Positions 9,278-37,422 of a stretch of 64,000 nt of DNA are shown here, in pieces (position 1 is the first letter of the stretch; each line of letters starts with the position of its first letter). The stretch lies in the IMG/VR virus record IMGVR_UViG_3300028549_000507, positions 32,001-96,000 of that record; one strand, written 5' to 3'. Under the pieces are notes generated by a model that was not told where the DNA came from, made no database searches, and was given only the letters and a program-made list of their open reading frames with translations. The position numbers and the translations under genes were made by a program. The DNA is from a virus (Duplodnaviria; Caudoviricetes).

Positions 9278-11053
9278 ATGGACACCAAAGAACTGATTGT
9301 TGAATTTTCAGAATTCATAGAGACTAGTTATGATGATATTGAGAGAGAATTATCTCTTATATCAAATTCCAATAAGAGCTTTGATAATTCAGATGCGCCT
9401 CTCAATTATAAACAAACAAACATGGAACCCGCAACTGTCAAAGATGCCATAGATACTATGATTAAAACTGGAGATGATTCCAAGTTTATAGATATGGTGA
9501 GTGATAAGTTTGTAGTTATGGTAAATAAACCTATTAAAGAAATCTTTGTTGATATGTCGAAGATTATTCACAGTTTCAATGATATAATATTGTCACATAA
9601 TGATATGGGAGACAAATCTACATTTGTTAATTTCAACAATTATGTCGGAGCTGTTAGACATAACTTAGAATTACTTCTATTAAGCAATGGTTCTAATGTC
9701 TCTATTGAAGGTTTTAATGTCGATAATTATGTAACTCATAACTCGAATACCCCATCATATGAGTCGGATATGTATTTATCTGTTGAAGCTGATGAGGTTA
9801 AACGTGAGGAAAATGAAAAAAATAACATTGAAGCTGCTAGAAACGCTATAAAGGCTGTGGGTAAGAAGTCTCTTAAAATTCGCAATGCTATCAATCAGGG
9901 TAAGATTAATCTTAATAACTTTATTGATAAGATGAATTTAATTAGAACAGCGTTTTATAATAAACATATGGGTAAGATTGATCATATATTTGAAAATTAT
10001 GGAAGTTCCGCTGTCATAAATGAAAATGAAGTATCGATGGATCCTGTTCAAGCTTTATTTCATAAGTGTGGACCATACCTAGCTAAACTTATAGATGATG
10101 TTATTCAGATATATAAGGACTATAACCTATTTATGGATAAGTGTTTCAACTTTAAATCATATGAAGAGATAATAGTTGAAGCTAATAAATATATTAAATT
10201 CGAAGATGTCAAGTTAGAAAATGAAGCAAAACCGTCAGATGTTAAAAAAGCACTGCTTAAGGATCTTAGATTCAAAGTTGCGACAGCGTTACTGACAGAT
10301 AATAAGGTATATGGTCATACTATAAAAAGTATAGTTGAGCAGAAATATCCTCCTATACACCATGTTATGGTATCATTATTTGTACCAAGACCGCATGAGA
10401 AACCTGTAGATATGGCTGTGAGTGATGTATTCTCTAAAGCAGAATCATTTCATCTTATGGGTAATAAAATGAAAGATGTTGTAAAACAGGCATCTTCTAT
10501 AGTTTCATCTAGAATATCCAGTATTAATATTGAGACCGACTTCAAGAAGGTTGTTGAGAGATTTGATAGATTCTCGAAAGTATCTAAAGCAAATCTTAAA
10601 GATCCGATACTTGGTGTTAGTAAAACTATGAATGATGGTGGTAAAGGGGAGATTGATAATAGAAGAAATGATCTTAAGAAAAGATTAGAAGTTCTTAGAG
10701 ATTTTGGTAATATTATCGAAACATTCATACCTATATTCACATATGTATCTGATGCCGGTGTTGTAATGTATGATATTGCTGTTAGAATAGATCATACGTG
10801 TCAAGATGCTGTAAAAGCATTATTGAACGCCGAATCCGCTAAGACAGACAATAGTTCCTCGTATAAAACTGGAGCTTCTAAAGTTAGAGATTCTGAGTAT
10901 AAAACTAGTGCGAATCCTAATCCTAAGAAATTGGATAAACGTTCTGATTTTGAAAAGAGAAGAGATGATCTTATGGCTGAAGGTAGACGTGATAATGGCG
11001 ATAGCGTTACACAGTTTAAACTCAGTGGGATAAACTCTGTTCTGCGTAGATAA
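9278..11053 (+). CDS. Putative virion (head) protein
   Basis: 591 aa, late promoter, SIE/SYE/SVE cluster near residues 140-170. Confidence 0.5.
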   Translation: MDTKELIVEFSEFIETSYDDIERELSLISNSNKSFDNSDAPLNYKQTNMEPATVKDAIDTMIKTGDDSKFIDMVSDKFVVMVNKPIKEIFVDMSKIIHSFNDIILSHNDMGDKSTFVNFNNYVGAVRHNLELLLLSNGSNVSIEGFNVDNYVTHNSNTPSYESDMYLSVEADEVKREENEKNNIEAARNAIKAVGKKSLKIRNAINQGKINLNNFIDKMNLIRTAFYNKHMGKIDHIFENYGSSAVINENEVSMDPVQALFHKCGPYLAKLIDDVIQIYKDYNLFMDKCFNFKSYEEIIVEANKYIKFEDVKLENEAKPSDVKKALLKDLRFKVATALLTDNKVYGHTIKSIVEQKYPPIHHVMVSLFVPRPHEKPVDMAVSDVFSKAESFHLMGNKMKDVVKQASSIVSSRISSINIETDFKKVVERFDRFSKVSKANLKDPILGVSKTMNDGGKGEIDNRRNDLKKRLEVLRDFGNIIETFIPIFTYVSDAGVVMYDIAVRIDHTCQDAVKALLNAESAKTDNSSSYKTGASKVRDSEYKTSANPNPKKLDKRSDFEKRRDDLMAEGRRDNGDSVTQFKLSGINSVLRR

Positions 11054-11087
11054 AAAAAAAAGAAGGATAGCTATAGCTATCCTTCTT
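11052..11087. terminator. Bidirectional intrinsic terminator
   Basis: A10-AAGAAGGATAGC-tata-GCTATCCTTCTT between convergent genes. Confidence 0.75.
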
Positions 11088-11090
11088 TAG

Positions 11091-11180
11091 TTACCACCAA
11101 TCTCTTCTAAAGAGTTTGTAAGTGATAAGTGATGCTACGCATGTAACCGCGATAATGATAAGTTTAGTTGCAACTTTCAT
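11091..11180 (-). CDS. 29-aa hydrophobic peptide MKVATKLIIIAVTCVASLITYKLFRRDWW
   Basis: Below the ORF-track cutoff; AGGA SD, own early-type promoter and downstream terminator. Confidence 0.6.
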   Translation of the reverse strand: MKVATKLIIIAVTCVASLITYKLFRRDWW

Positions 11181-11249
11181 AATGAATCCTATTCCTGGTA
11201 TTCGTACCATAGAAAAATTGTTATAGGATATAGATCAGTCAATCTATTC

Positions 11250-11265
11250 CACTATTAAATATATA
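11250..11265 (-). promoter_or_regulatory. Early-type promoter motif TATATATTTAATAGTG
   Basis: Same motif at 22192, 22645, 26952, 30777, 35224, 37320, 38900 and 43002, always intergenic and upstream of minus-strand units. Confidence 0.7.
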
Positions 11266-11298
11266 CTTTATAATTCATTTATTACAAAAAGGAGGGAA

Positions 11299-12693
11299 TT
11301 ACCCTCCTTCTTTTTTTGTAGTATTCAATAGAGTTATGGTTTCAAATGATTTAAATATATTATAATTACCTGAAGTATTCTCTGGATAGAATTCTTGGTT
11401 ATAATCTGATATAATGAATTTCTTTTCAACAAAACGTTCATTATCTTTAACATCTCCACCTACGACATTTATAGTAAATAGTACATTAGGTTTAAGACAA
11501 TCATCATCCATAGAATCCGATTCTATTACGTAGAATGAATCAATGCCAAGCGATTCGAGCATACTGAATAGGTTAAAGTTATTATTCAACTCATCATATT
11601 CAAAAGATACACCCATACCAGTCTTACTATGACTTAATGCATTTCTAATATATTGTCTAGCTGGAGATTCTGCTCCTTCGAATTTACCATCTTTATAACT
11701 AAACGTTTCCATACCGAAACCATAGTTAGTAAATGCTATACTATCTCCATATGCTTCACCGCTAACAATTCCTAAAGAATTATCTTTAACACCCTTAAAC
11801 ACTGTATGAGCGACAGTTGAATCGGTCTCATACATAGTCATTCCGCCAACATCACCATCAGTATTGTCGGTTTTAGAATATACATACAGATTACAATCTT
11901 TAACTTTACCTTCTTCATAATCATGCTCTAAAGAAAGTCTATTTAGTATATATAACTTACCATCATGATCGAAGAAAGATAATATACCTTTAAGATATAA
12001 TCCATATGTAACTTGCAACGCATCTAATGTATATTTAACATTCCCCGGAGGGATTATTATATTCTCAAAAGGAATTATATTATCAGGTTTATCTATTATA
12101 AACCCTTTACAACCACAAGTCTCAGCAATAAATCGTAGAGCAGTGTCTACCTGAATATAATCTACTCCTTTAGATCTAAGTACTGTATTGTATGTTTTCT
12201 TAAACATCATGTGGTAATCTAGGGTAGTTAGATACATTCGAACAGTATAGATATTTAATGCTCTATCTCGTTCATTTATAGTAGCGATATCCAAAGGTCC
12301 AGCATTCTCATCTTTAGAAGGATTCTCAGGAAAATCCCTAAGATTAGTAGTATCATCTGATTCTACAAGAGGAATGAATAGTTGTTCAAATACTATATCA
12401 TTCTCAACTAGAGTCTTGTCTGCACTATCTTTTGATGTTAAATATTTTAACTTCTCTTTAGTTAAATGTAATAGTAATCTATTATCATTTTTCTTTATAA
12501 ATCCGACATGATCAGCAGTCAGTTCTAATGTAATTGTCATCATTGGTGTGAATAAGTTGTTATACTTAACCACATTTGTTATACTTTGTATCTTTATAGG
12601 TTCAAATTCACCAGTACCATCATCTAAGAATAACTTACATGAAAATCTGTATCTGATACTATATTTTTGATCTTTATCTTTAGCAGCCATCAC
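11299..12693 (-). CDS. Putative virion structural protein (beta-rich, baseplate/tail-associated)
   Basis: 464 aa, downstream of the late promoter at 13729; no diagnostic motif. Confidence 0.4.
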   Translation of the reverse strand: MMAAKDKDQKYSIRYRFSCKLFLDDGTGEFEPIKIQSITNVVKYNNLFTPMMTITLELTADHVGFIKKNDNRLLLHLTKEKLKYLTSKDSADKTLVENDIVFEQLFIPLVESDDTTNLRDFPENPSKDENAGPLDIATINERDRALNIYTVRMYLTTLDYHMMFKKTYNTVLRSKGVDYIQVDTALRFIAETCGCKGFIIDKPDNIIPFENIIIPPGNVKYTLDALQVTYGLYLKGILSFFDHDGKLYILNRLSLEHDYEEGKVKDCNLYVYSKTDNTDGDVGGMTMYETDSTVAHTVFKGVKDNSLGIVSGEAYGDSIAFTNYGFGMETFSYKDGKFEGAESPARQYIRNALSHSKTGMGVSFEYDELNNNFNLFSMLESLGIDSFYVIESDSMDDDCLKPNVLFTINVVGGDVKDNERFVEKKFIISDYNQEFYPENTSGNYNIFKSFETITLLNTTKKEGG

Positions 12694-19334: not shown

Positions 19335-21722
19335 TTACATTTCACCTTTTACGAGAAACATTTCTTTCTTAGCAGTGCTATTTGTGAAAAGGTTCTCAAT
19401 CCACGTATCAGTATAGAATTTATCAGTACTTTTCAATTGGATGATATAACGAGTTTTCGTATCCATAGACGTTACACGAAGTTCCTCTTCCGAGTTCGCT
19501 CCGAGACCTTTAGATCGCGTAACCTCCATACCAGAATTATTTCCAAATAGAGTATTATGAATAAGTTTACCTTGTTCATAATAGATACCACTATAGATAG
19601 TTCCAGTATTACGTCCTACCAATCGGATTCTACATAGTTGAATTTTATTTTTAATGAAATCTACAATAGGATCTATTATATTTTCTTTAAAAGTTCTATC
19701 AATCTGTATATAGAAGTGCTCATATTCCTTATCAATATTAAGCTTTCTAACTCCACCTTCTTCAATATCGAATTTGGTACAATCAAATCCATAAACTTTA
19801 AGTGATTTAGTATTACCTTTCATGATATTCTTGAAATCCATAGCAATTGCTTCCAATATGATAGGATTCAATGTTAATCTATGAGCAAACTCATCAAGCA
19901 ATTTAGAATAGTCTACAAGATTCTGAATGTAGTATTTAAATACATAATCCGGAATATCTGTATTCTCTGGGGTAATACCTTTGAATACTTTCATACACTT
20001 ATCATTTAGCAAACGATTCAGTTGATCATGATTATTGATATATATCGAATTACCTTTAGCATTCATAGTGTATAAAGGCGGTTTAGCAATGAATACATTT
20101 CCATTCTCAATCAGCTCTGGGTAATGTATATGAAAGAATGCTATAAGAAGTGAACTAATATGATACCCATCAACATCGGCGTCTGTAATGATAATGATAC
20201 GCTTATATCTCAATTTAGAGATATCTTTAGTATCATCTTTACCAATTCCGAGAATCTTGACAAGAGTCATAAGTTCCTCTGATAGATCAGATTTCTTTAC
20301 AACATTTTTCACTTTACCACGAAGAGCGAATACAGCTTGATAATCTCTATTACGACCATCTTTAACAGATGATGCAGCGGAATCTCCTTCACATAAGAAT
20401 ATCTCCGTACGCTCTGGATCATTCTTATTACAGTCGGAGAATTTCTTTACATCAATAGTCTTGAATAGATCAGTTTTACTTGATCCAGATTTGATGATCG
20501 CATCTTTAAGCTTACTTGTTTCATATCTCAATTTTGCAAGTTTAGCACAATGTTCACCGATCTTATCGATAGTTGTTGGATCAGAAGATATCCATTTACT
20601 AATCTCATTCTTAAGAACTGGTACAGTTGTAGGTCTATATTCTTTAGAGTTGAAATAACTCTTCTGCTGACCTGTATATTCCGCATGTTGTTGGTCTGCA
20701 ACAATGATCGCAAACATACTATCTGCAATCTCGGAACCACTAATCTTAATCTTATTTGCCATAGATTTAGGTATGTAATTACCTTTATTAAGATGAGCAG
20801 TCAATGTTCCGAGTGCTTCTGTTAACGATTTAACGTGTTCACCACCATCTTTAGTATAGATACCATTTACATATGAAATGCTACCCGCACCACGTCCGGT
20901 GAATCCTAGTACGATATTATAACCTACAGTATGTTTATCATTAAACCATTTGAAATGTACTGGTTTACCGATTGTCTTAATACTACGTTTACGACTTTCT
21001 TTTTCATAATAGTCTACAACGCCATTAGGATGATAATAGTGTTCAACACGACCATTATCCCATTTGAAGTTAATCTTTACACCGGGAGTTACCATAGATT
21101 GTACTTCTACAAAATTTCTATACTCAGATGCTCTAGATGTAATATCTACAAGACGCATAACCTCTACGTCAGGAGTCCATTCGATAATTGTACCGGTGAG
21201 TTTCTTGTCAACTTTAACAATTTCAACATCACCAATCTGCACACCCATATCGAATTTGACCTTATGAGATTCACCATCTCGTGTAGAAATTGCTACAAGA
21301 TCACGACTTACGGCAGTAACCATAGTGATACCAATCCCATTTACGCCGCCAGATACAGGATATCCAGACTTCTCTGCCCCAGCGATATCTCCCATTTTAC
21401 CGGAAGTATTCATCTTAGTGAGAATTCGTACAAGTTTACCTTGTGGGATACCTCGACCTCTATCTTCAATACGGAATCGGGGACCTCGACTATCGATAGT
21501 ATTATTGATATATACATCAATTTCATTACCGAAACCGGCTATAAATTCGTCAATTGAATTCGCAAATACTTCTTGAAGTAGGTGAAATACTCCATCCAAC
21601 TCAATTTTACCATTGAGCATAGGGCGTTTTCTCAATGCTTCAAGTTCCGTAAGTTCAACGATGTGGTCATCATTATAACCAGTAGACATAGTAGATCCTT
21701 CATGTTTATTATTAGACTTCAT
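19335..21722 (-). CDS. gyrB: Type IIA DNA topoisomerase subunit B (GyrB/ParE-like)
   Basis: EVFANSIDE, DRGRGIP, GGVNGIG (GHKL ATPase); EGDSA, LRGK, TDADVDG (TOPRIM); KGLG. Confidence 0.95.
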   Translation of the reverse strand: MKSNNKHEGSTMSTGYNDDHIVELTELEALRKRPMLNGKIELDGVFHLLQEVFANSIDEFIAGFGNEIDVYINNTIDSRGPRFRIEDRGRGIPQGKLVRILTKMNTSGKMGDIAGAEKSGYPVSGGVNGIGITMVTAVSRDLVAISTRDGESHKVKFDMGVQIGDVEIVKVDKKLTGTIIEWTPDVEVMRLVDITSRASEYRNFVEVQSMVTPGVKINFKWDNGRVEHYYHPNGVVDYYEKESRKRSIKTIGKPVHFKWFNDKHTVGYNIVLGFTGRGAGSISYVNGIYTKDGGEHVKSLTEALGTLTAHLNKGNYIPKSMANKIKISGSEIADSMFAIIVADQQHAEYTGQQKSYFNSKEYRPTTVPVLKNEISKWISSDPTTIDKIGEHCAKLAKLRYETSKLKDAIIKSGSSKTDLFKTIDVKKFSDCNKNDPERTEIFLCEGDSAASSVKDGRNRDYQAVFALRGKVKNVVKKSDLSEELMTLVKILGIGKDDTKDISKLRYKRIIIITDADVDGYHISSLLIAFFHIHYPELIENGNVFIAKPPLYTMNAKGNSIYINNHDQLNRLLNDKCMKVFKGITPENTDIPDYVFKYYIQNLVDYSKLLDEFAHRLTLNPIILEAIAMDFKNIMKGNTKSLKVYGFDCTKFDIEEGGVRKLNIDKEYEHFYIQIDRTFKENIIDPIVDFIKNKIQLCRIRLVGRNTGTIYSGIYYEQGKLIHNTLFGNNSGMEVTRSKGLGANSEEELRVTSMDTKTRYIIQLKSTDKFYTDTWIENLFTNSTAKKEMFLVKGEM

Positions 21723-21845
21723 TTTACTCTCCGAATGTTACATTTATTTGTTGAGTGAATTATAATTTTTAATCCTATGGCGTTATCTAATATATATTTA
21801 AACGATATCATTGAAAAAAAAAAGAAAGGCTTGCACCCTTTCTTT

Positions 21846-22106
21846 TTAACTCATACTCGCCATTACGCCGAGTATTGTCCCTGCAAGCACAGTGCTCGCC
21901 AGAACCGTGTTGAGTACGATCTTTTGAACACCTTTGACTTCCGACAACCCGTCGGAAGTTGAGAGCATCATGAGCGGGATGCTCATGATCGCCAGTGCAA
22001 GCGCGATTCCTATGGCAATATATGCCATAGGTTTAATCATCATAATCACCGCAACCGTAACAACAGTAACGATAATTTGAAGTGCTTCTTTTGTAGAATC
22101 TTTCAT
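21846..22106 (-). CDS. Small membrane protein in a solo early cassette
   Basis: 86 aa, about 3 hydrophobic segments, visibly GC-richer than flanks, own promoter (22192) and terminator. Confidence 0.65.
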   Translation of the reverse strand: MKDSTKEALQIIVTVVTVAVIMMIKPMAYIAIGIALALAIMSIPLMMLSTSDGLSEVKGVQKIVLNTVLASTVLAGTILGVMASMS

Positions 22107-22246
22107 AATAAATCCAATCCGGGCATATATTGTTTTGCCCTATAATTAATTAATAGAAGGTAAGTTAACATTCGTTACTTCCTTCTTTGTTCACTATTAA
22201 ATATACATATTACAAAAAAAAAGAGAGAGGGATTACTCCCTCCCTA

Positions 22247-28073: not shown

Positions 28074-30332
28074 CTAATTAGCACAGCTTACACATTCTTC
28101 TTTAGACTTTTCAGAACCATCTTTTTGAATAGTTCTTGTATAATAAATAGCTTTACACTCGGATTTCCAAGCGAATATAATATTTTCAAAGATATCCTTA
28201 GCGGTGATATCTGAATTGAGATTGTACACAAGCTCCATACTAATTCCAGTATCGATCCATTTCTGAATAATAGATGTAATACGGATCACATCTCTTTGAT
28301 CTGTAAACTTATTCTCATTATAGAACCATCGTTTAGATCTAATATAAGGTGGGAATACAGGTACATTTCCATTAGAATTCTTTTCGATATGGAACTTAGA
28401 GTATGTAGGAAGAACACTTGCTGTACATCCGATGAGATTAGATGTAGATGTATTTGGAGCAATTGCTGTACATTGTGAGTTTCTTATTCCAAACACTTTA
28501 AGTTTATTGAATAATACTTTCCATTTTTCATACATACTTGAGTTAGAGTATTCATCAATAGTTTTATTGAGGATCTTACCTTTATAGAATTCTGAATTCT
28601 CATATGCTTCAAATGTTCCACGTTCTTTAGCCAAATCTATAGATGAATCATATGTATAATATGCAAATTTTTCAAATAGATTATCTACAAATTCTCCAGA
28701 TTCAGCATATCGTTTATCATTTATAGCTAACAAATCATGCAAACCCATATAACCGATACCGATTACTCTATATAGTCTATTGTGATTATCTGCATCCATT
28801 ACTGGTGGAGTTGTAATTTCTATAGCATTATCAAGTATTCTAACTGCCGTTCTATGGATTTGTTTAATTTCATCTTCATCCGTAATATCTATTTCTGCAA
28901 GATTTATAGAAACTAGGTTACATATATGGGTTTCCCCTATACGTCTAATCTCGGTCGATACTGCAGAATCATGCTCAGATTCCATTATTGAAGATGGTCT
29001 AAAGTTAGAGAATGATTCTACACAGAGATTAGCAGAACCAATATAACCACATTCTTTATTTGGATTATATTTGTTAGCGGTATCTTTGAAGAATATATAT
29101 GGCATACCGGTCTCAATTTGAGTTTTCATGATATGCTTCATAATATCTCTTGCTTGATGAACTCTTTTGAATTTGATCAATTCACTATGTTCGATAGTAA
29201 GATACCAATCTTCAAATGCTTTACCATGAAGTTCGAAGATATTTATACCAAATACCTTTTTAATTTCATATGGATCGAATGTTGTCCAAGGACCACTTTC
29301 TTCAACACGTCGCATGAATATGTCCGATATAACTACTTGTGGGAATACATCAAATGACTTTCTTCTAAGATCACCATTTTCAGTCTGCATTTCCAAGAAT
29401 TCAATAATATCATTGTGCCAAATATCCAATGCGACAGTAGCTGCACCAGCTCTATGACCATTCTGATCTACTGCAATCATTGTATCATTTACAATCTTAA
29501 TCCAAGGAAGAACTCCATTGGATCCTCCGAGTTGTCCTCTAAGATAAGATCCATTTGATCTAATTCTAGATACATTAACACCTACACCACCACCTGTAGC
29601 AGATATATTAGAAATATCTTTTACTGTTTGGAATATGCTGTCTAGGTTATCATCCATTGCTACGATGAAGCAAGATGATAGATTTCCATTAGGACGTCTA
29701 AGGTTTGTTAGGATAGGCGTTGCAAGAGATATCAATTTCCTAGTGATCATACTATAGAATTGGATTGTTACACTGTTGCGAACTTCCGGTTTCTCATTCA
29801 TTGCGAGGTACATTGATACTACCATAAACATTGTTTGAGGGAGTTCATATCCTATAAGATAACGGTTTTTAAGAATGTTTAAACCGGCGTATTCAAACAA
29901 TGCATCATTATCAAAATCCATAGAATTGAAGATTTCTCTAATAGATTCTTCATTATATCTTTCCAATATAACTTTATCATATTGATTCTCTTCAACCATT
30001 TTATTAACAAATGAAACAAACCCATCTACAGTATATTGGTCGAATTTAAGGTTTCGTTTGGCTTCTTTTGTAACTTCATGAAGGAGCATTCTAGCTGCAA
30101 AACTTGAGTAATCTAGGTTATTCAAATCACATTTAGTTACAGCATAGTGAATGATTGATTTCTGAATCTCACTGGTAGTGACAACTTCTGATTTAGAGAA
30201 TGCATCAATGTGGGCTTCTACTTCAAGGTGATCTATAGTGAGTCCTACGGAACAATCTCGTACAACTTTTCTAATTTTTTCAATATCAATTTTACTTTCA
30301 TGACCATGACGGTCAACTACGGTTACGCTCAT
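28074..30332 (-). CDS. nrdA: Class I ribonucleotide reductase alpha subunit
   Basis: ATPILTN, SSCF, GGGVG, SANLCVE, IGIGYMGL, IAPNTSTS, C-terminal CVSC. Confidence 0.97.
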   Translation of the reverse strand: MSVTVVDRHGHESKIDIEKIRKVVRDCSVGLTIDHLEVEAHIDAFSKSEVVTTSEIQKSIIHYAVTKCDLNNLDYSSFAARMLLHEVTKEAKRNLKFDQYTVDGFVSFVNKMVEENQYDKVILERYNEESIREIFNSMDFDNDALFEYAGLNILKNRYLIGYELPQTMFMVVSMYLAMNEKPEVRNSVTIQFYSMITRKLISLATPILTNLRRPNGNLSSCFIVAMDDNLDSIFQTVKDISNISATGGGVGVNVSRIRSNGSYLRGQLGGSNGVLPWIKIVNDTMIAVDQNGHRAGAATVALDIWHNDIIEFLEMQTENGDLRRKSFDVFPQVVISDIFMRRVEESGPWTTFDPYEIKKVFGINIFELHGKAFEDWYLTIEHSELIKFKRVHQARDIMKHIMKTQIETGMPYIFFKDTANKYNPNKECGYIGSANLCVESFSNFRPSSIMESEHDSAVSTEIRRIGETHICNLVSINLAEIDITDEDEIKQIHRTAVRILDNAIEITTPPVMDADNHNRLYRVIGIGYMGLHDLLAINDKRYAESGEFVDNLFEKFAYYTYDSSIDLAKERGTFEAYENSEFYKGKILNKTIDEYSNSSMYEKWKVLFNKLKVFGIRNSQCTAIAPNTSTSNLIGCTASVLPTYSKFHIEKNSNGNVPVFPPYIRSKRWFYNENKFTDQRDVIRITSIIQKWIDTGISMELVYNLNSDITAKDIFENIIFAWKSECKAIYYTRTIQKDGSEKSKEECVSCAN

Positions 30333-30458
30333 TGGTTTCTCCTAAAGATAAATACTCGCTACTAATAGACTGTTTAATCGATTATATTTTTTAAATTTAT
30401 AACGATAGATGATATGTTCAAAAAAAAAAGAAGGAGAGCGCAATGCTCCCCTTTCTTT

Positions 30459-30692
30459 TTATTCTGAAGCCTTTCTAAGGGCACGGCGAAGTGCCGCTCC
30501 CTTATACGCTACGGAGTCATAGATATTCACCCACACGTCGAAATCTCCTTCCGGATCAATAGCGTGTCCGAAGATCCACGCATCTCCATTCATAATGAAC
30601 GAAGTCTGAATAGCCTCAACCCCCTGCACAGATACTTCTGTGATAAGGGTTCTAATTTCTTTGTCGCCGCTGTTTGTTGTAACTTTAATCAT
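30459..30692 (-). CDS. Hypothetical protein in a solo early cassette
   Basis: Start moved to ATG 30692 (AAGGA SD); GC-richer than flanks; promoter at 30777. Confidence 0.65.
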   Translation of the reverse strand: MIKVTTNSGDKEIRTLITEVSVQGVEAIQTSFIMNGDAWIFGHAIDPEGDFDVWVNIYDSVAYKGAALRRALRKASE

Positions 30693-30843
30693 AATAGATC
30701 CTTTTCTTGGCACACCTGTACCATAGTAAAAATATAGTTTGTTAGAGTATATGGTATAGTCTTTCTATCCATTCTCCACTATTAAATATACACATCAATA
30801 ATCGTTTATTACAAAAAGAGAGGGATTGCTCCCTCTCCTTATA

Positions 30844-33800
30844 TTATCCGCAAGAAAGAGGTTTTCTAATAATAGGTCTATCACTAGAATTTGAAGAATA
30901 TGTAACTCTTCTAGGAGCTTCCCATTCACGTCGTTCTTTGTTCCAATTTTCAACTTTAGTTGGGAATCCAACAACACGAGTGATACGGGATACAATCTCT
31001 GCACCACACATATTACAACTAGTTGTATCGAAATCTCCAATAGTATTATGACCATTTTCACATTCACACGTTACAGGATTAGCCGAGAAGTGTTCACATC
31101 CCACTTCAACCGCATCATTTACAAGATTTTCATTTTGTAATGGAGTTAAAAGTGATCCAATTTGGAAGTGAACAATACCACCACCGGTAAGCATCTGTTG
31201 ATACTTTCCGTCAGTAGCCATACGTTCATAGATAGTAGCATCTTCCCACAATGGAACGAATTGATTACTATATAGAACATTAGTTACAACATCACTACCA
31301 AATATAGCCCTATCAGCTTTAGGGAATTTAGCAGCCATAGACTCACCGGGAATCTCTTCAATATTACCAAAGATCTCATATTTAGAAGAGAACTCGTCTA
31401 CAGAACTCTCAATGATTTCTAAAGCAATCCCGATGAAATCAAGATCTTCATCATTACCAAATTTATGAACAAGAGTTGTAGCCATCTCAGAAGAAGCAAT
31501 TATACCAATAGTAGAGAATAATGCATTATGATTGATCCAACCATTAGAAATAAACTTCTGAAGCTTCTTATCTGCTGTAAATTTGATAAGTTCTTTATGA
31601 GCCTTAAGAACTTTACATGCGTCTTCTACTCTGTTTCTAAGTACTTCTTTGAAGTCTTTTACAGATTTAGATTGCAATGCAACTCTATTAAGATTAATAG
31701 GAACTACACGATGCGAACCAATACCAATACCTTCTCCACCAAATGAGTTTACAGATTTAGCCTGTTCTCTCATTAGAGATTTGAGTAGGTCATAATCGTT
31801 GGAAAACCGACAGTTGTGAGTTATAATTCCATTAGGAAGAGTAAAGTATGGTTCATCTTTATTTTTCATTTCAAAACAGTATACATATTCTTTTTCATAA
31901 TCTTTGATTTTCTCAACTGATTTGATTTTAAAGTAAGTATTGCCATTGAATTTTCTATAAATATGACCATATCCTCGCTTCTGTTTTATAGAATAGAATC
32001 TCACAGAATACACTGGGTATTTTGGAATAATAGTTTCAACCCCACGAACAGGTCTAATTTGACCAACTCTATTATCAATATTTACAACAGAAGTCATACC
32101 TAATGAAGTTATCAATACCTCAAGATCTAATGATAATTGTTCACTCGTAGTATATATTCTATTTCTATTTCCACCATCGGTAATATAAAGACCCTCAAGT
32201 ATACCTTTTCTAAATTTTACAGATTGTTTTATAGCATCAAGATTTAGAGATTTTGAATGAGCTTTCCCTAAATTTGTCCAAGTTTGTATAAGATTTATAA
32301 TGCGTTTATCACTAGTACTAACCGATACAACATTGTTTGCTATGGGATTTATATTCCAAATAGGATTTGTCAAATCTACAATCTTACCAAAGATCCCAAC
32401 CTTTTCAGAATTCATACTTAAGATAAGTCTATTGTAGTTTGAAATATCGCCATTCTTACATTCGTGGATACTACTAGAGATATTTCCATCTCCTAAATAT
32501 GCCCCAACAATAATACCGTCTTCATATGAGATATCCAACTCACTATTAGATCCGAGTACAGATGAGTTCAACATTAGATAATTTGATCTAGATAGTTTAT
32601 CAGTTCGAATATCTCCAGTCATTGTTGGAAATAAATGATCCTCAGTAGCAATCATTACCTTATTGTTGGTAGTTTCGATTCTATACATAGATTTATTATC
32701 TCTAGGAATCTTAACTAGTTCACCATTACACCAAGAACCATCGTGGAAGATTTTATATTTACCAATATTAGAGTTATATAACTCTTCAAATGAGAGTCTC
32801 ATAACTCCATCTTTTTTACTATTGATCAAGCAATCCTCACCACCATCGAAGCAGCACATCGACACTCTATTGCCAGTACTTACATTGATATTGTATCTAT
32901 GCATTTCTCGTACAGCAACTTTTTTAAGAAAGTCTTGTTCAACTACACGGAATTTACCAGTCTCATCATCAAATACTTTAGTCATATTTATTGTAGATAC
33001 TGGGAATGTGATCTGTCGATTATTCTTTGTTTGGTCACCTTTTTCAAAGATATCCATATAGATATTTTGAAGTTCAACAATCAAATCTGCGATATAATTA
33101 ACTTTTTCATCACCATGTAAATAATCGGTATCCATGAACATGTGTTCCATAGTACCATATATCCCTTTAATTTTAGTTCTATCAAAGATAGAAATATTGG
33201 TAAAAGGAGATTCTGCACCATTTCTAGATGTGTGATTTACTGAGTGAATAATTGTCTGGAATAGATTTTCAAGAGTCTTTCTAACTATATAATTAGTTTT
33301 AATATCCTCAAGATTAACTCTACCTATAGATGTATTTACACCATCTGCGTACATAATAAGATGGGCAATATCAAAGAATAGAGTTGAGATAGCAATAGCA
33401 CCAGCCAAACTATTACTCATCTCATGAACGGTTTCTAAAACCTGTTGGATATAACTATCAACACGTTTTGCAGGAGCCGAATGAAGAACTCCCCAAGGTC
33501 TACCCTCGATAATCAATTTACTAAAGTCAGCAGCATAACAATATACAGAAAGAATTTGTGTACTATCGCTAACGGTAAGATCGAAAGAATACAGTAATCC
33601 AGATAAGCGTTTAGCTTCTTCTTTACCATAGATTTCTTTCATAGCTCTATATAGATAGTCATATCCTGTAATCTTTTGGAAGCTAGCTTGAGCATCTGCA
33701 AAGATCTGTTTGATAGTCTTCTCTGTTTTATTAGAGTTATCATCTACCATACCGGCAATAGTATCTTGTTTAAACTGTGCTGACATAGACATTTCAACAT

Positions 33801-33984
33801 TTTTTACAAAGTCGAAATTCGCAGGAGCCATTCCATGAATTTTCATAAGTTCATGAGCAACATTATCAATATGATCTTCAGGAATAATTCCGGAGTGTCT
33901 CAGGTTATCCTTAAGAGTATTTGAAATATTCTTCTGCAGTCTACTTGTTTTCGACGAGTAGTCGAATTCTAAGGTCTCATTCAT
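30844..33984 (-). CDS. nrdD: Anaerobic (class III) ribonucleotide reductase, intein-containing
   Basis: ESPFTN, SMC|CRF active-site motif split by an intein, EEIPGES, C-terminal CxxC pairs, glycyl-radical motif RVVGF. Confidence 0.95.
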   Translation of the reverse strand: MNETLEFDYSSKTSRLQKNISNTLKDNLRHSGIIPEDHIDNVAHELMKIHGMAPANFDFVKNVEMSMSAQFKQDTIAGMVDDNSNKTEKTIKQIFADAQASFQKITGYDYLYRAMKEIYGKEEAKRLSGLLYSFDLTVSDSTQILSVYCYAADFSKLIIEGRPWGVLHSAPAKRVDSYIQQVLETVHEMSNSLAGAIAISTLFFDIAHLIMYADGVNTSIGRVNLEDIKTNYIVRKTLENLFQTIIHSVNHTSRNGAESPFTNISIFDRTKIKGIYGTMEHMFMDTDYLHGDEKVNYIADLIVELQNIYMDIFEKGDQTKNNRQITFPVSTINMTKVFDDETGKFRVVEQDFLKKVAVREMHRYNINVSTGNRVSMCCFDGGEDCLINSKKDGVMRLSFEELYNSNIGKYKIFHDGSWCNGELVKIPRDNKSMYRIETTNNKVMIATEDHLFPTMTGDIRTDKLSRSNYLMLNSSVLGSNSELDISYEDGIIVGAYLGDGNISSSIHECKNGDISNYNRLILSMNSEKVGIFGKIVDLTNPIWNINPIANNVVSVSTSDKRIINLIQTWTNLGKAHSKSLNLDAIKQSVKFRKGILEGLYITDGGNRNRIYTTSEQLSLDLEVLITSLGMTSVVNIDNRVGQIRPVRGVETIIPKYPVYSVRFYSIKQKRGYGHIYRKFNGNTYFKIKSVEKIKDYEKEYVYCFEMKNKDEPYFTLPNGIITHNCRFSNDYDLLKSLMREQAKSVNSFGGEGIGIGSHRVVPINLNRVALQSKSVKDFKEVLRNRVEDACKVLKAHKELIKFTADKKLQKFISNGWINHNALFSTIGIIASSEMATTLVHKFGNDEDLDFIGIALEIIESSVDEFSSKYEIFGNIEEIPGESMAAKFPKADRAIFGSDVVTNVLYSNQFVPLWEDATIYERMATDGKYQQMLTGGGIVHFQIGSLLTPLQNENLVNDAVEVGCEHFSANPVTCECENGHNTIGDFDTTSCNMCGAEIVSRITRVVGFPTKVENWNKERREWEAPRRVTYSSNSSDRPIIRKPLSCG
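31813..32853 (-). mobile_element. Intein (347 aa) with LAGLIDADG homing endonuclease
   Basis: Starts CFDGGE, ends VYCFEM...GIITHN followed by extein C; endonuclease blocks GAYLGDG and GLYITDG. Confidence 0.95.
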
Positions 33985-34036
33985 TTGTACGCCTTTCTCC
34001 AATATTACCACATTTGAAAATATTAGAAATAGAAAG

Positions 34037-35013: not shown

Positions 35014-35130
35014 ACGATCCTCCAATAAAAATAATAATCCGTCAATCAAATGTTTGACTTCTATTTATTTTTTATTGAAAAAAAAAAGTACACATCCGAA
35101 ATTGTGTACAAAAATCATTACACTTATATG

Positions 35131-35190
35131 TTAAAATGTTATGACTAAATCTTTTAAGAAGTTTCTCAAAACTTCGATACACTCTCTCAC
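35131..35190 (-). CDS. 19-aa peptide MRECIEVLRNFLKDLVITF
   Basis: GTG start behind AGGGGA; only ORF between the promoter at 35224 and the terminator at 35079-35109. Confidence 0.45.
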   Translation of the reverse strand: MRECIEVLRNFLKDLVITF

Positions 35191-35296
35191 GATATCCCCT
35201 AGATATTTATTAGTATTGTATTACACTAATAAATATATACATCAAAAAGAAGTCAAAAAATCAATAGTGTAGGGATTTCTCCCTACACTAATTACT

Positions 35297-37050: not shown

Positions 37051-37167
37051 AATGTAAACCCACCCAGTTTTAAATTACATTTGGTTGTTGGATCGTTATT
37101 TAATATATAAACTATATTAGTTATTGAAAAAAAAAGTAGGGGGAGAATTTCTCCCCCAGTATTATGA

Positions 37168-37221
37168 TTAATCTTCATCGCACAATGGCGGAAGAGTAAC
37201 CCAAGTATTTGGATGCAACAT
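37168..37221 (-). CDS. 17-aa peptide MLHPNTWVTLPPLCDED
   Basis: Perfect AAGGAGG 5 nt before ATG; between the promoter at 37320 and the terminator at 37127-37157. Confidence 0.5.
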   Translation of the reverse strand: MLHPNTWVTLPPLCDED

Positions 37222-37422
37222 AGCATCCTCCTTTTCAATATGTCCACTTCCCTTAAATCAGGGGTCAATACATTGATAGACTTTCAATGTATTCAGATGA
37301 TCAATATTGTATATTTCATCACTATTAAATATATAATCTATATGTACGGTTATTACAAAAATAACAATCATTAAACAATTTAATGTGGATATTTAACCAA
37401 AATTTATTAAAAGGCGTTTTAC

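What the first reader, a model, noticed from the sequence alone, without database searches (positions are those of the whole stretch)
11181..11265. Homologous two-hairpin leader shared by unrelated solo cassettes (copy 1)
Seen: the leader of the 29-aa ORF reads promoter-hairpin 1 (ATAGAT-tgactg-ATCTAT)-...AACAA.TTTTTCTA-hairpin 2 (TGGTA-cgaa-TACCA)-GGAATAGGATTCATTATG. The leader at 30693-30792 has the same order and shares sequence: hairpin 1 ATGG-ATAG/CTAT-a-CCAT, ...AACAA..TTTTTACTA, TGGTAC-aggt-GTGCCA, AGAAAAGGATCTATTATG. The ORFs also begin alike (MKVAT / MIKVTT) and then diverge. Inference: a reusable expression module or structured cis-regulatory RNA into which different payload genes have been swapped.
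Basis: partly seen in the sequence, partly recalled or inferred. Interest (0 to 1): 0.66.

Follow-up and report, generated by a model that had tools for sequence, protein, structure and literature searches.

The report
Reused early-promoter leader cassette, jumbo phage
In an uncultured giant phage, this is the front end (promoter, two-hairpin leader, ribosome site) of a one-gene early cassette; the same front end is reused before unrelated tiny genes, much like the promoter/terminator shuffling cassettes of T4-type phages.

Summary
Observation confirmed; interpretation partly supported. All features lie on the minus strand of a 200-kb, 33% GC phage that encodes its own multisubunit RNA polymerases.

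Window 11181-11265 holds a 14-nt promoter core (TATATTTAATAGTG, 15 copies genome-wide with up to one mismatch). A 69-nt leader follows, with a hairpin at the inferred 5' end (hp1), a second hairpin 15 nt before the AUG (hp2) and a ribosome-binding site. The payload is a 29-aa membrane-type ORFan, closed off by a terminator.

The likeness to the leader at 30693-30790 goes beyond promoter and ribosome site (z 6.1, 1 of 300 shuffles). The two are not each other's nearest kin. Closer copies lie at genome 28016 and 29379 (for this one) and 16300 (for the other).

Both hairpins show some structure-preserving change. hp1 has three compensatory pairs under an unchanged loop. hp2 has three different 3' arms that all pair. 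hp2 is missing in sibling copies.

The whole cassette is absent from phages about 50% identical at this site. AR9's own early leaders are short and unstructured.

Best reading: a PeSL-like reusable expression cassette whose hairpins stabilise and insulate the mRNA. This scan had already noted the cassette family elsewhere in this genome.

The parts
11289..11309 (.). Upstream G+C-rich terminator hairpin with T-runs on both sides. It overlaps the stop codon of the 464-aa gene (11299-12693, minus strand).
   Evidence: Terminator scan and sequence. Similar GAGGGAnnAATCCCTC-type hairpins precede most promoter copies.
11264..11288 (-). AT-rich upstream element (TTGTAATAA... type). It is not conserved in spacing among copies.
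   Evidence: The sigma-70-like match TTGTAA-18-TATATT scores only 9 of 12.
11250..11263 (-). Promoter core TATATTTAATAGTG. The transcription start is inferred at or next to its last G.
   Evidence: 15 copies with up to one mismatch genome-wide, 13 on the minus strand. Window excess over shuffles. Resembles the AR9 early consensus AAATATATATTAT-N6-G+1 (PMC5312081). Relatives carry TATATATTTAATTATGAG.
11226..11250 (-). Hairpin 1: 6-7 bp core plus GGA:TCC over a bulged A; loop TGACTG; about -8 kcal/mol.
   Evidence: Folds. Three compensatory pairs plus one G-U against genome copy 186326, with loop and 3' flank unchanged.
11210..11225 (-). Single-stranded linker with a T5 run, shared with genome copies 28016 and 29379.
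11196..11209 (-). Hairpin 2: 5 bp, loop CGAA, -3.7 kcal/mol (longer if the T-run pairs with the first GGA). Its base lies 15 nt before the AUG.
   Evidence: The same 5' arm appears in copies 28016 and 30790 with different loops and 3' arms that still pair.
11186..11195 (-). Ribosome-binding region GGA-N3-AGGAT, followed by (N)ATT-ATG as in sibling cassettes.
11091..11180 (-). Payload: 29-aa ORFan, hydrophobic helix with a basic/aromatic tail (best 19-residue hydropathy 2.0).
   Evidence: no family match.
11059..11088 (-). Downstream 13-bp terminator, shared with the convergent 591-aa gene (9278-11053, plus strand).
30693..30790 (-). Partner copy: promoter core 30777-30790, hp1 30744-30777, hp2 30708-30723, SD. 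It drives the 77-aa ORFan at 30459-30692, which is followed by a terminator.
   Evidence: Identical in two other contigs.
22107..22205 (-).
   Evidence: z -4.0. Its paralogue at genome 27466 carries a compensatory G-C to A-U change in hp2.

Best explanation
The stretch is the 5' control frame of a self-contained, single-gene early cassette of an AR9-like jumbo phage.

Parts, in order: upstream terminator; a phage-specific promoter (core TATATTTAATAGTG); a 69-nt leader; SD; a 29-aa ORFan; a terminator.

Inferred steps:
1. The promoter is most likely read by the phage's own virion-type multisubunit RNA polymerase.
2. Transcription most likely starts at or beside the last G of the core. hp1 would then sit at the very 5' end of the mRNA.
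3. hp1 would act as a 5'-terminal protective stem-loop against 5'-end-dependent decay.
4. hp2 sits at a fixed 14-15 nt from the AUG. It would keep the weak AGGAT ribosome site single-stranded and independent of whatever lies upstream or is inserted behind it.

Shown here:
- The frame belongs to a small multi-copy family in this genome, with hp1 types and presence or absence of hp2 combined in different ways.
- The frame is fused to unrelated ORFans.
- This cassette is missing at the same site in related phages.

Inferred by analogy with PeSL cassettes: the dispersed terminator-promoter-leader repeats are the substrate by which small genes are gained, lost and exchanged.
For: Promoter class:
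- 15 copies, nearly all behind a terminator and in front of a monocistronic ORF followed by another terminator.
- The phage has two Rpb2_6 matches and one Rpb1_2 match.
- AR9-type late motifs AACA-N6-T[AG] stand before nrdA and the topoisomerase gene (PMC5312081).
- A 64%-identical relative uses the near-identical core TATATATTTAAT.

Homology of leaders:
- z 6.1 for the reported pair, 11.5 for this copy against genome 29379, 26.7 for 30790 against 16300, and 33.4 for the family B pair.
- A further copy lies at genome 28016.

Structure:
- hp1 is 100% paired, with three double-sided changes.
- hp2 3' segments pair by chance with P = 0.037, 0.012 and 0.0017.
- Family B hp2 carries a compensatory change.
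- G-U pairs fit the sense-strand RNA only.
- The first 45 nt of 14 leaders have mean z -2.6, against -0.56 for 80 control 5' regions (p = 3.6e-4).

Insertion:
- Six relative loci have 30-33 nt and one shared terminator where this phage has a 245-nt cassette.

Known precedents:
- Protective 5'-terminal stem-loops, as in ompA (references 113 and 114 of PMC2777011).
- PeSL cassettes (PMC2839356).
Against: - There are no RNA data, so the start site, timing and polymerase are all inferred.
- hp1 of this copy is not significantly more stable than shuffles (z -1.2), and hp2 is weak (-3.7 kcal/mol).
- hp2 is absent in copies 16300, 29379 and 186326, so it is dispensable.
- The covariation rests on very few independent sequences. 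One sequence supplies all three hp1 changes. RNAalifold finds no double-sided change in hp2.
- Paralogues are not independent in the class-wide tests.
- A sigma-70-like reading (TTGTAA-18-TATATT) fits this particular copy.
- No mini-circle or recombination junction was seen.
Confidence: 0.68

Rival explanations
1. The hairpins are operators for a trans-acting factor. A phage or host RNA-binding protein, nuclease or small RNA would recognise hp1 (loop UGACUG) and/or hp2. It would jointly control stability, translation or localisation of a subset of early mRNAs, as T4 RegA and RegB do.
For: The hp1 loop and its 3' flank stay unchanged while the stem covaries. hp2 keeps a fixed distance to the AUG in five leaders of at least two families. 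AR9 and the nearest relatives mostly lack such structures, so they are not a generic need of this promoter class.
Against: Only four copies share the loop, and one of them has UGAAUG. Other cassettes under the same promoter carry unrelated hairpins or none. No complementary partner of note was found in the genome. No candidate binding protein was identified.
Confidence: 0.14
2. The leader is a riboregulator or attenuator that switches between folds. In this copy AUCCUAU (just after hp1) can pair with the SD segment AUAGGAU. In the 30790 copy ACCAUA can pair with UAUGGU.
For: The minimum-energy fold of this leader sequesters the SD in a 7-bp helix, within 1.5 kcal/mol of the open form.
Against: The SD-masking helix is not conserved in the nearest copy (28016) or in the 30790 copy. 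There is no Rfam match. The leader is too small and too variable for a ligand pocket. No T-run follows either hairpin as a terminator would need.
Confidence: 0.06
3. The similarity is only recent duplication. The hairpins are neutral left-overs of palindromic DNA, and the promoter is an ordinary host sigma-70/sigma-A promoter as in true PeSLs.
For: TTGTAA-18-TATATT matches at this copy. The copies in sister contigs are identical. hp2 can be lost. z-scores for this copy are weak.
Against: The -35-like hexamer is absent or wrongly spaced in most copies, whereas eight bases downstream of TATATT are invariant. Three diverged hp2 3' arms all keep pairing. There are compensatory changes in hp1 and in family B hp2. 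Structure is enriched class-wide against controls and against AR9.
Confidence: 0.12

Closest known systems
PeSL (promoter-early stem-loop) cassettes of T4-type phages RB49 and phi1 (Arbiol et al. 2010, PMC2839356)
   Same: Dispersed intergenic repeats that combine a terminator stem-loop, an early promoter, an SD and a start codon. They flank small ORFan genes in a plastic genome region, and related phages differ by insertion or deletion of whole promoter-to-terminator units.
   Different: PeSL promoters match the host sigma-70 consensus, and their stem-loop sits within or upstream of the promoter as a terminator. Here the promoter is an AR9-like phage-polymerase type. Besides the upstream terminator, there are transcribed leader hairpins downstream of the promoter that are themselves shared and reassorted. 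Mini-circles were not examined.
Early (virion RNA polymerase) promoters of Bacillus phage AR9 / PBS1 (Lavysh et al. 2017, PMC5312081)
   Same: [quoted passage not shown] Dozens of copies stand before early genes in a phage that encodes two sets of split multisubunit RNA polymerase genes. AACA-N6-T[AG] late motifs are also present here.
   Different: The core sequence differs (TATATATTTAAT-nnTG against AAATATATATTAT-N6-G). The first 45 transcribed nt of AR9's 25 early transcripts are unstructured, and most reach an SD within that stretch (mean z -0.13). Here leaders are 50-98 nt and structured (mean z -2.6).
ompA-type 5' UTR stabilisers (Emory et al. 1992; Arnold et al. 1998, as cited in PMC2777011)
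   Same: A two-hairpin leader with a stem-loop at the extreme 5' end and a second hairpin just upstream of the ribosome-binding site.
   Different: There is no sequence relation. The stabilising function is untested here, and the host and its RNases are unknown.

Membership tests
PeSL-type mobile regulatory cassette | Repeated intergenic unit that joins a terminator stem-loop, an early promoter, an SD and a start codon | tested here: met
   hairpin plus T-run, 14-nt core, SD and ATG in most of the 15 copies.
PeSL-type mobile regulatory cassette | Promoter matches the host sigma-70 consensus (-35 and -10 at 16-18 nt) | tested here: not met
   Only some copies have TTGTAA at 18 nt. Others have it at 4-14 nt or lack it, while the eight bases after TATATT are invariant.
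PeSL-type mobile regulatory cassette | Units flank ORFans and mark insertions or deletions between related phages | tested here: met
   The payloads match no family and the 77-aa product has no homologue. The cassette is absent at the orthologous site in six relative loci.
PeSL-type mobile regulatory cassette | Recombination between units yields mini-circles | not testable with these tools
   Only contigs were available. The joints are explained by paralogous repeats.
AR9/phiKZ-type virion-RNAP early promoter | Phage encodes split multisubunit RNA polymerase genes | tested here: met
   Two PF00562 matches and one PF00623 match in the 200-kb record. Subunit sets were not fully assigned.
AR9/phiKZ-type virion-RNAP early promoter | Extended AT-rich conserved core with the start site a fixed few bases downstream, active early without host polymerase | tested here: inconclusive
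   The core resembles the AR9 consensus, with a conserved G eight bases after TATATT against nine in AR9. No RNA run was available to map starts or timing.
5'-terminal stem-loop mRNA stabiliser | Stem-loop within a few nt of the 5' end that prolongs half-life | not testable with these tools
   hp1 begins at the last G of the core. Both the start site and any half-life effect are inferred.
Known cis-regulatory RNA family (Rfam) | Match to a curated covariance model | tested here: not met
   No hit at gathering score in the window. Only E > 0.09 noise in 11050-11350.

The most novel reading that the evidence does not exclude
hp1 (conserved UGACUG loop on a covarying stem) and the fixed-distance hp2 are recognition tags for a dedicated factor. 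That factor would set the fate of a subclass of early mRNAs (protection, timed shut-off, or hand-over to ribosomes from the early infection compartment). The phage lineage seems to build a nucleus-like shell and, unlike AR9, has evolved long structured early leaders.
Probability: 0.1. Interest if true: 0.7.

Novelty: new variant of a known kind. Interest (0 to 1): 0.4.

Why it matters
It extends the idea of mobile regulatory cassettes from T4-type phages that use host-polymerase promoters to a jumbo phage that brings its own polymerase. The unit of exchange here includes a transcribed, structured leader, not only the promoter and terminator.

The cassette gives a compact, natural 'plug-in' expression frame whose parts can be tested one by one (5' hairpin, RBS-proximal hairpin, weak SD). 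It also flags a set of tiny early ORFans, several of them membrane peptides, as likely accessory host-takeover genes.

The contrast with AR9's unstructured early leaders is a concrete comparative question about mRNA stability in such infections.

Tried and rejected
Searches for relatives and further copies:
- Megablast and tblastn against the phage collection found nothing.
- The search for related loci with the neighbouring 464-aa gene, and three specific leader patterns in viral contigs, found nothing.
- The bare 14-nt core in viral contigs gave only single, chance-level hits.
- The hp1 pattern in metagenome contigs gave four hits, all without promoter or hairpin, so chance.
- Relatives cannot be drawn for a virus record, and the records behind the loci are not held.

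Expression and strain variation:
- No RNA holder was listed.
- Laying four DNA runs gave contigs only. Assemblies break at the repeated promoters, and no variant was listed inside 11181-11265.
- The 14-nt 'insertion' at 22207 in run X4 probably comes from the paralogue at genome 27466 and was not used.

RNA families and models:
- Rfam gave nothing.
- No covariance model was built. Only three hp2 copies can be aligned structurally, family B falls out of register in MAFFT, and a word-7 BLAST of the whole genome found no further copies.

Readings considered and dropped:
- SD masking by AUCCUAU in this copy is not conserved in siblings.
- An upstream AUG inside the hp2 5' arm could start a longer ORF or a uORF. 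It has no SD, and its frame is not kept in the 30790 copy.
- Complements of the hp1 loop elsewhere in the genome showed nothing notable.
- A strict mosaic origin (5' half from one family, 3' half from another) is only weakly supported. SD-segment identities are 13-15 of 18 with all three siblings.

Full report
**What is there**

The window is bases 32001-96000 of a single 200,251-bp virus contig with 33% G+C. All features of the finding lie on the minus strand. In the direction of transcription the order is:
- A G+C-rich hairpin with T-runs at 11289-11309, overlapping the stop codon of a 464-aa gene.
- An AT-rich spacer.
- The 14-nt core TATATTTAATAGTG at 11263-11250.
- A 69-nt leader at 11249-11181.
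- ATG at 11180, opening a 29-aa hydrophobic ORF that ends at 11091.
- A 13-bp terminator at 11088-11059, shared with the convergent 591-aa gene.

RNAfold places hairpin 1 at 11226-11250. It has a 6-7 bp core with loop TGACTG, extended by GGA:TCC over a bulged A. Hairpin 2 is at 11196-11209, with stem TGGTA/TACCA and loop CGAA.

**Is the likeness more than chance?**

I removed the promoter core and the last 14 nt (SD and spacer) and aligned all 13 leaders pairwise. The reported pair scores 31, with z 6.1, and 1 of 300 dinucleotide shuffles reaches that score. The median over all pairs is 14. So the similarity is not confined to the promoter and SD.

The two leaders are not nearest neighbours, however.
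- A word-7 BLAST of the genome found a further copy at genome 28016, whose promoter core has two mismatches. It matches this leader at 34 of 37 positions through hp1 and the linker and carries the same CTATGGTAC.
- Genome 29379 shares hp1 and the linker (32 of 37) but has no hp2.
- Genome 16300 is almost identical to the 30790 leader, except that hp2 is collapsed to a loopless TGGTACCA.
- Genome 186326 shares the hp1 loop and 3' flank on a different stem.

The two hp1 types, and hp2 present or absent, therefore occur in all combinations. That points to reassortment or repeated loss. A clean two-parent mosaic for this copy is only weakly supported.

The claim that the ORFs begin alike rests on 14 of 16 nt with one gap. 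A score that high occurs in 0.4% of random gene-start pairs, which is suggestive but not proof. The proteins themselves are unrelated.

**What the shared core is**

The core occurs 15 times genome-wide with up to one mismatch. Thirteen copies are on the minus strand, and most lie between 16 and 70 kb. Almost every copy sits behind a terminator and in front of a short monocistronic ORF that is followed at once by another terminator. In three places the next core follows directly.

Several lines point to a phage-polymerase promoter of the AR9 type:
- The record has two Rpb2_6 matches and one Rpb1_2 match, so the phage encodes multisubunit RNA polymerase.
- The AR9 paper gives the early consensus AAATATATATTAT-N6-G(+1) and the late consensus AACA-N6-TA/G (PMC5312081).
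- Here TATATT is followed by eight invariant bases ending in G.
- AACA-N6-T[AG] stands in front of nrdA and of the topoisomerase gene, just after the cassette terminators.
- A relative with a 64%-identical topoisomerase uses TATATATTTAATTATGAG before its small genes.

A sigma-70-like reading (TTGTAA-18-TATATT) fits this copy. In most copies, though, the -35-like hexamer is missing or wrongly spaced.

I therefore read the core as an AR9-like early promoter recognised by virion RNA polymerase, with the start at or next to its last G. This is inference, because no RNA run holds the phage.

**Are the hairpins selected?**

hp1:
- I aligned this copy, 28016 and 29379 with 186326. All six core pairs are kept.
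- Three pairs have changes on both sides and one is G-C to G-U, while the loop and the following ATCCTATAA are unchanged. Only 9 of 500 shuffles do as well, and slid registers collapse.
- All of these changes come from one sequence.

hp2:
- The 5' arm is constant. The loop and 3' arm differ entirely among this copy, 28016 and 30790, yet form 5, 7 and 6 pairs.
- A random 3' segment does as well with P = 0.037, 0.012 and 0.0017.
- RNAalifold recovers hp2 as the consensus, but with one-sided changes only.
- Family B (22205 and genome 27466) has an unrelated G+C-rich hp2 with one compensatory G-C to A-U change.
- In all five leaders that have an hp2, its base lies 14-15 nt from the AUG.

The G-U pairs would be A-C mismatches on the other strand, so the structure belongs to the sense RNA.

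Class-wide tests:
- The first 45 nt of 14 leaders fold better than shuffles (mean z -2.6), compared with -0.56 for 80 control 5' regions (p = 3.6e-4). Paralogues inflate this figure.
- AR9's 25 early transcripts have short leaders with mean z -0.13.
- Relatives' leaders are mostly short and unstructured.

Structured early leaders are thus a trait of this lineage, not of the promoter class.

Against strong claims:
- This copy's own z-scores are weak (-1.2 to -1.7).
- hp2 is only -3.7 kcal/mol.
- hp2 is dispensable in three relatives of the leader.

**The cassette as a unit**

Homologues of the 464-aa gene, at 44-53% identity, were traced to their contigs. In six loci from at least two lineages, the 464-aa and 591-aa homologues are separated by 30-33 nt holding one bidirectional terminator. 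In this phage, and in an identical sister contig, the gap is 245 nt and holds the cassette.

The upstream terminator here resembles the relatives' single terminator. The simplest history is therefore insertion of a promoter-to-terminator unit next to an existing terminator.

The 77-aa payload of the 30790 cassette has no homologue among 5.8 billion clusters. All of the five cassette payloads scanned lack Pfam or PHROG matches.

**Mechanism proposed**

- Shown: repeated frames, unrelated payloads, insertion as a unit, and hairpins kept through sequence change.
- Inferred: an early vRNAP promoter; hp1 as a 5'-terminal protective stem-loop; hp2 as a spacer or insulator that presents a weak SD at a fixed geometry; the repeats as substrates for recombination that shuffles small genes.

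The closest described system is the PeSL cassette of T4-type phages (PMC2839356). It shares the terminator-promoter-SD repeat, the ORFan cargo and the insertions and deletions between relatives. It differs in promoter type, and its stem-loop is a terminator rather than part of a transcribed leader. The ompA 5' UTR is the functional analogue for a two-hairpin protective leader (PMC2777011).

**Rivals**

- A trans-factor operator is favoured by the conserved loop and fixed geometry, and is weakened by the diversity of hairpins under the same promoter.
- A switching riboregulator is possible because this copy's lowest-energy fold masks the SD with AUCCUAU. That helix is not conserved in siblings.
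- Neutral duplication under a host promoter is weakened by the pairing statistics and by the invariant bases downstream of TATATT.

**Prior notes of this scan**

Earlier notes had already described this cassette family elsewhere in the same genome and named PeSL as the closest kind. I reached the copy list, the insertion evidence and the AR9 comparison with my own calls.

What this report adds:
- The copy at genome 28016 as the nearest relative of this leader.
- The hp1 and hp2 pairing tests.
- The absence of the cassette at this specific site in relatives.
- The contrast with AR9's unstructured early leaders.

**Verdict**

This is a real, multi-copy, reusable early expression frame. It is a new variant of a known kind of phage regulatory cassette, of moderate interest.

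Noticed in passing
window 30360-30385 and 21735-21760 (minus strand): AACA-N6-T[AG], the AR9 late-promoter consensus, stands just upstream of nrdA (28074-30332) and of the topoisomerase II gene (19335-21722). Each follows the terminator of an early cassette.
   Followed up: partly
window 35090-35237 (minus strand): A one-mismatch promoter core (TATATTTATTAGTG) is followed by about 150 nt ending in a hairpin plus T-run. At most a 19-codon GTG ORF lies inside. This is a candidate small RNA or micro-peptide unit.
   Followed up: no
window 37130-37333 (minus strand): An exact promoter core with a 98-nt, two-hairpin leader, followed by only a 17-codon ORF before a terminator. It may be a non-coding transcript rather than a gene.
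   Followed up: no
window 30844-34011 (minus strand); L131 1-2849: The NrdD-like anaerobic ribonucleotide reductase gene upstream of the 30790 cassette carries an intein. The identical gene in a sister contig has precomputed Pfam hits NRDD, Intein_splicing, NRDD.
   Followed up: no
L165 822-1222: A related phage contig (topoisomerase 57% identical) encodes a tmRNA with a 26-residue tag, inside a 1.2-kb non-coding gap (ARAGORN).
   Followed up: partly
L163 1463-1928: In the 64%-identical relative, an early-type core (TATATATTTAATTATGAG) opens a 466-nt stretch without a called gene, ending in a terminator. It may be a non-coding RNA.
   Followed up: no
genome 16150-16210, 27100-27170; window 30420-30458: The downstream terminators of three cassettes are also alike (AGAAGG..GCATTrCGC..CCTTCT), so the 3' end of the frame is reused as well as the 5' end.
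   Followed up: partly
window 11091-11180, 21846-22106; genome 16056-16211, 29485-29955: Several cassette payloads are small proteins with one strongly hydrophobic helix (29, 86, 51 and 156 aa). These are possible membrane-acting early accessory proteins.
   Followed up: partly
L163 3846-3912: One early leader of the relative contains the same 11-mer TTTTTCTATGG as this leader. There, CTATGG forms the 3' arm of the 5' hairpin rather than the 5' arm of a second hairpin.
   Followed up: partly
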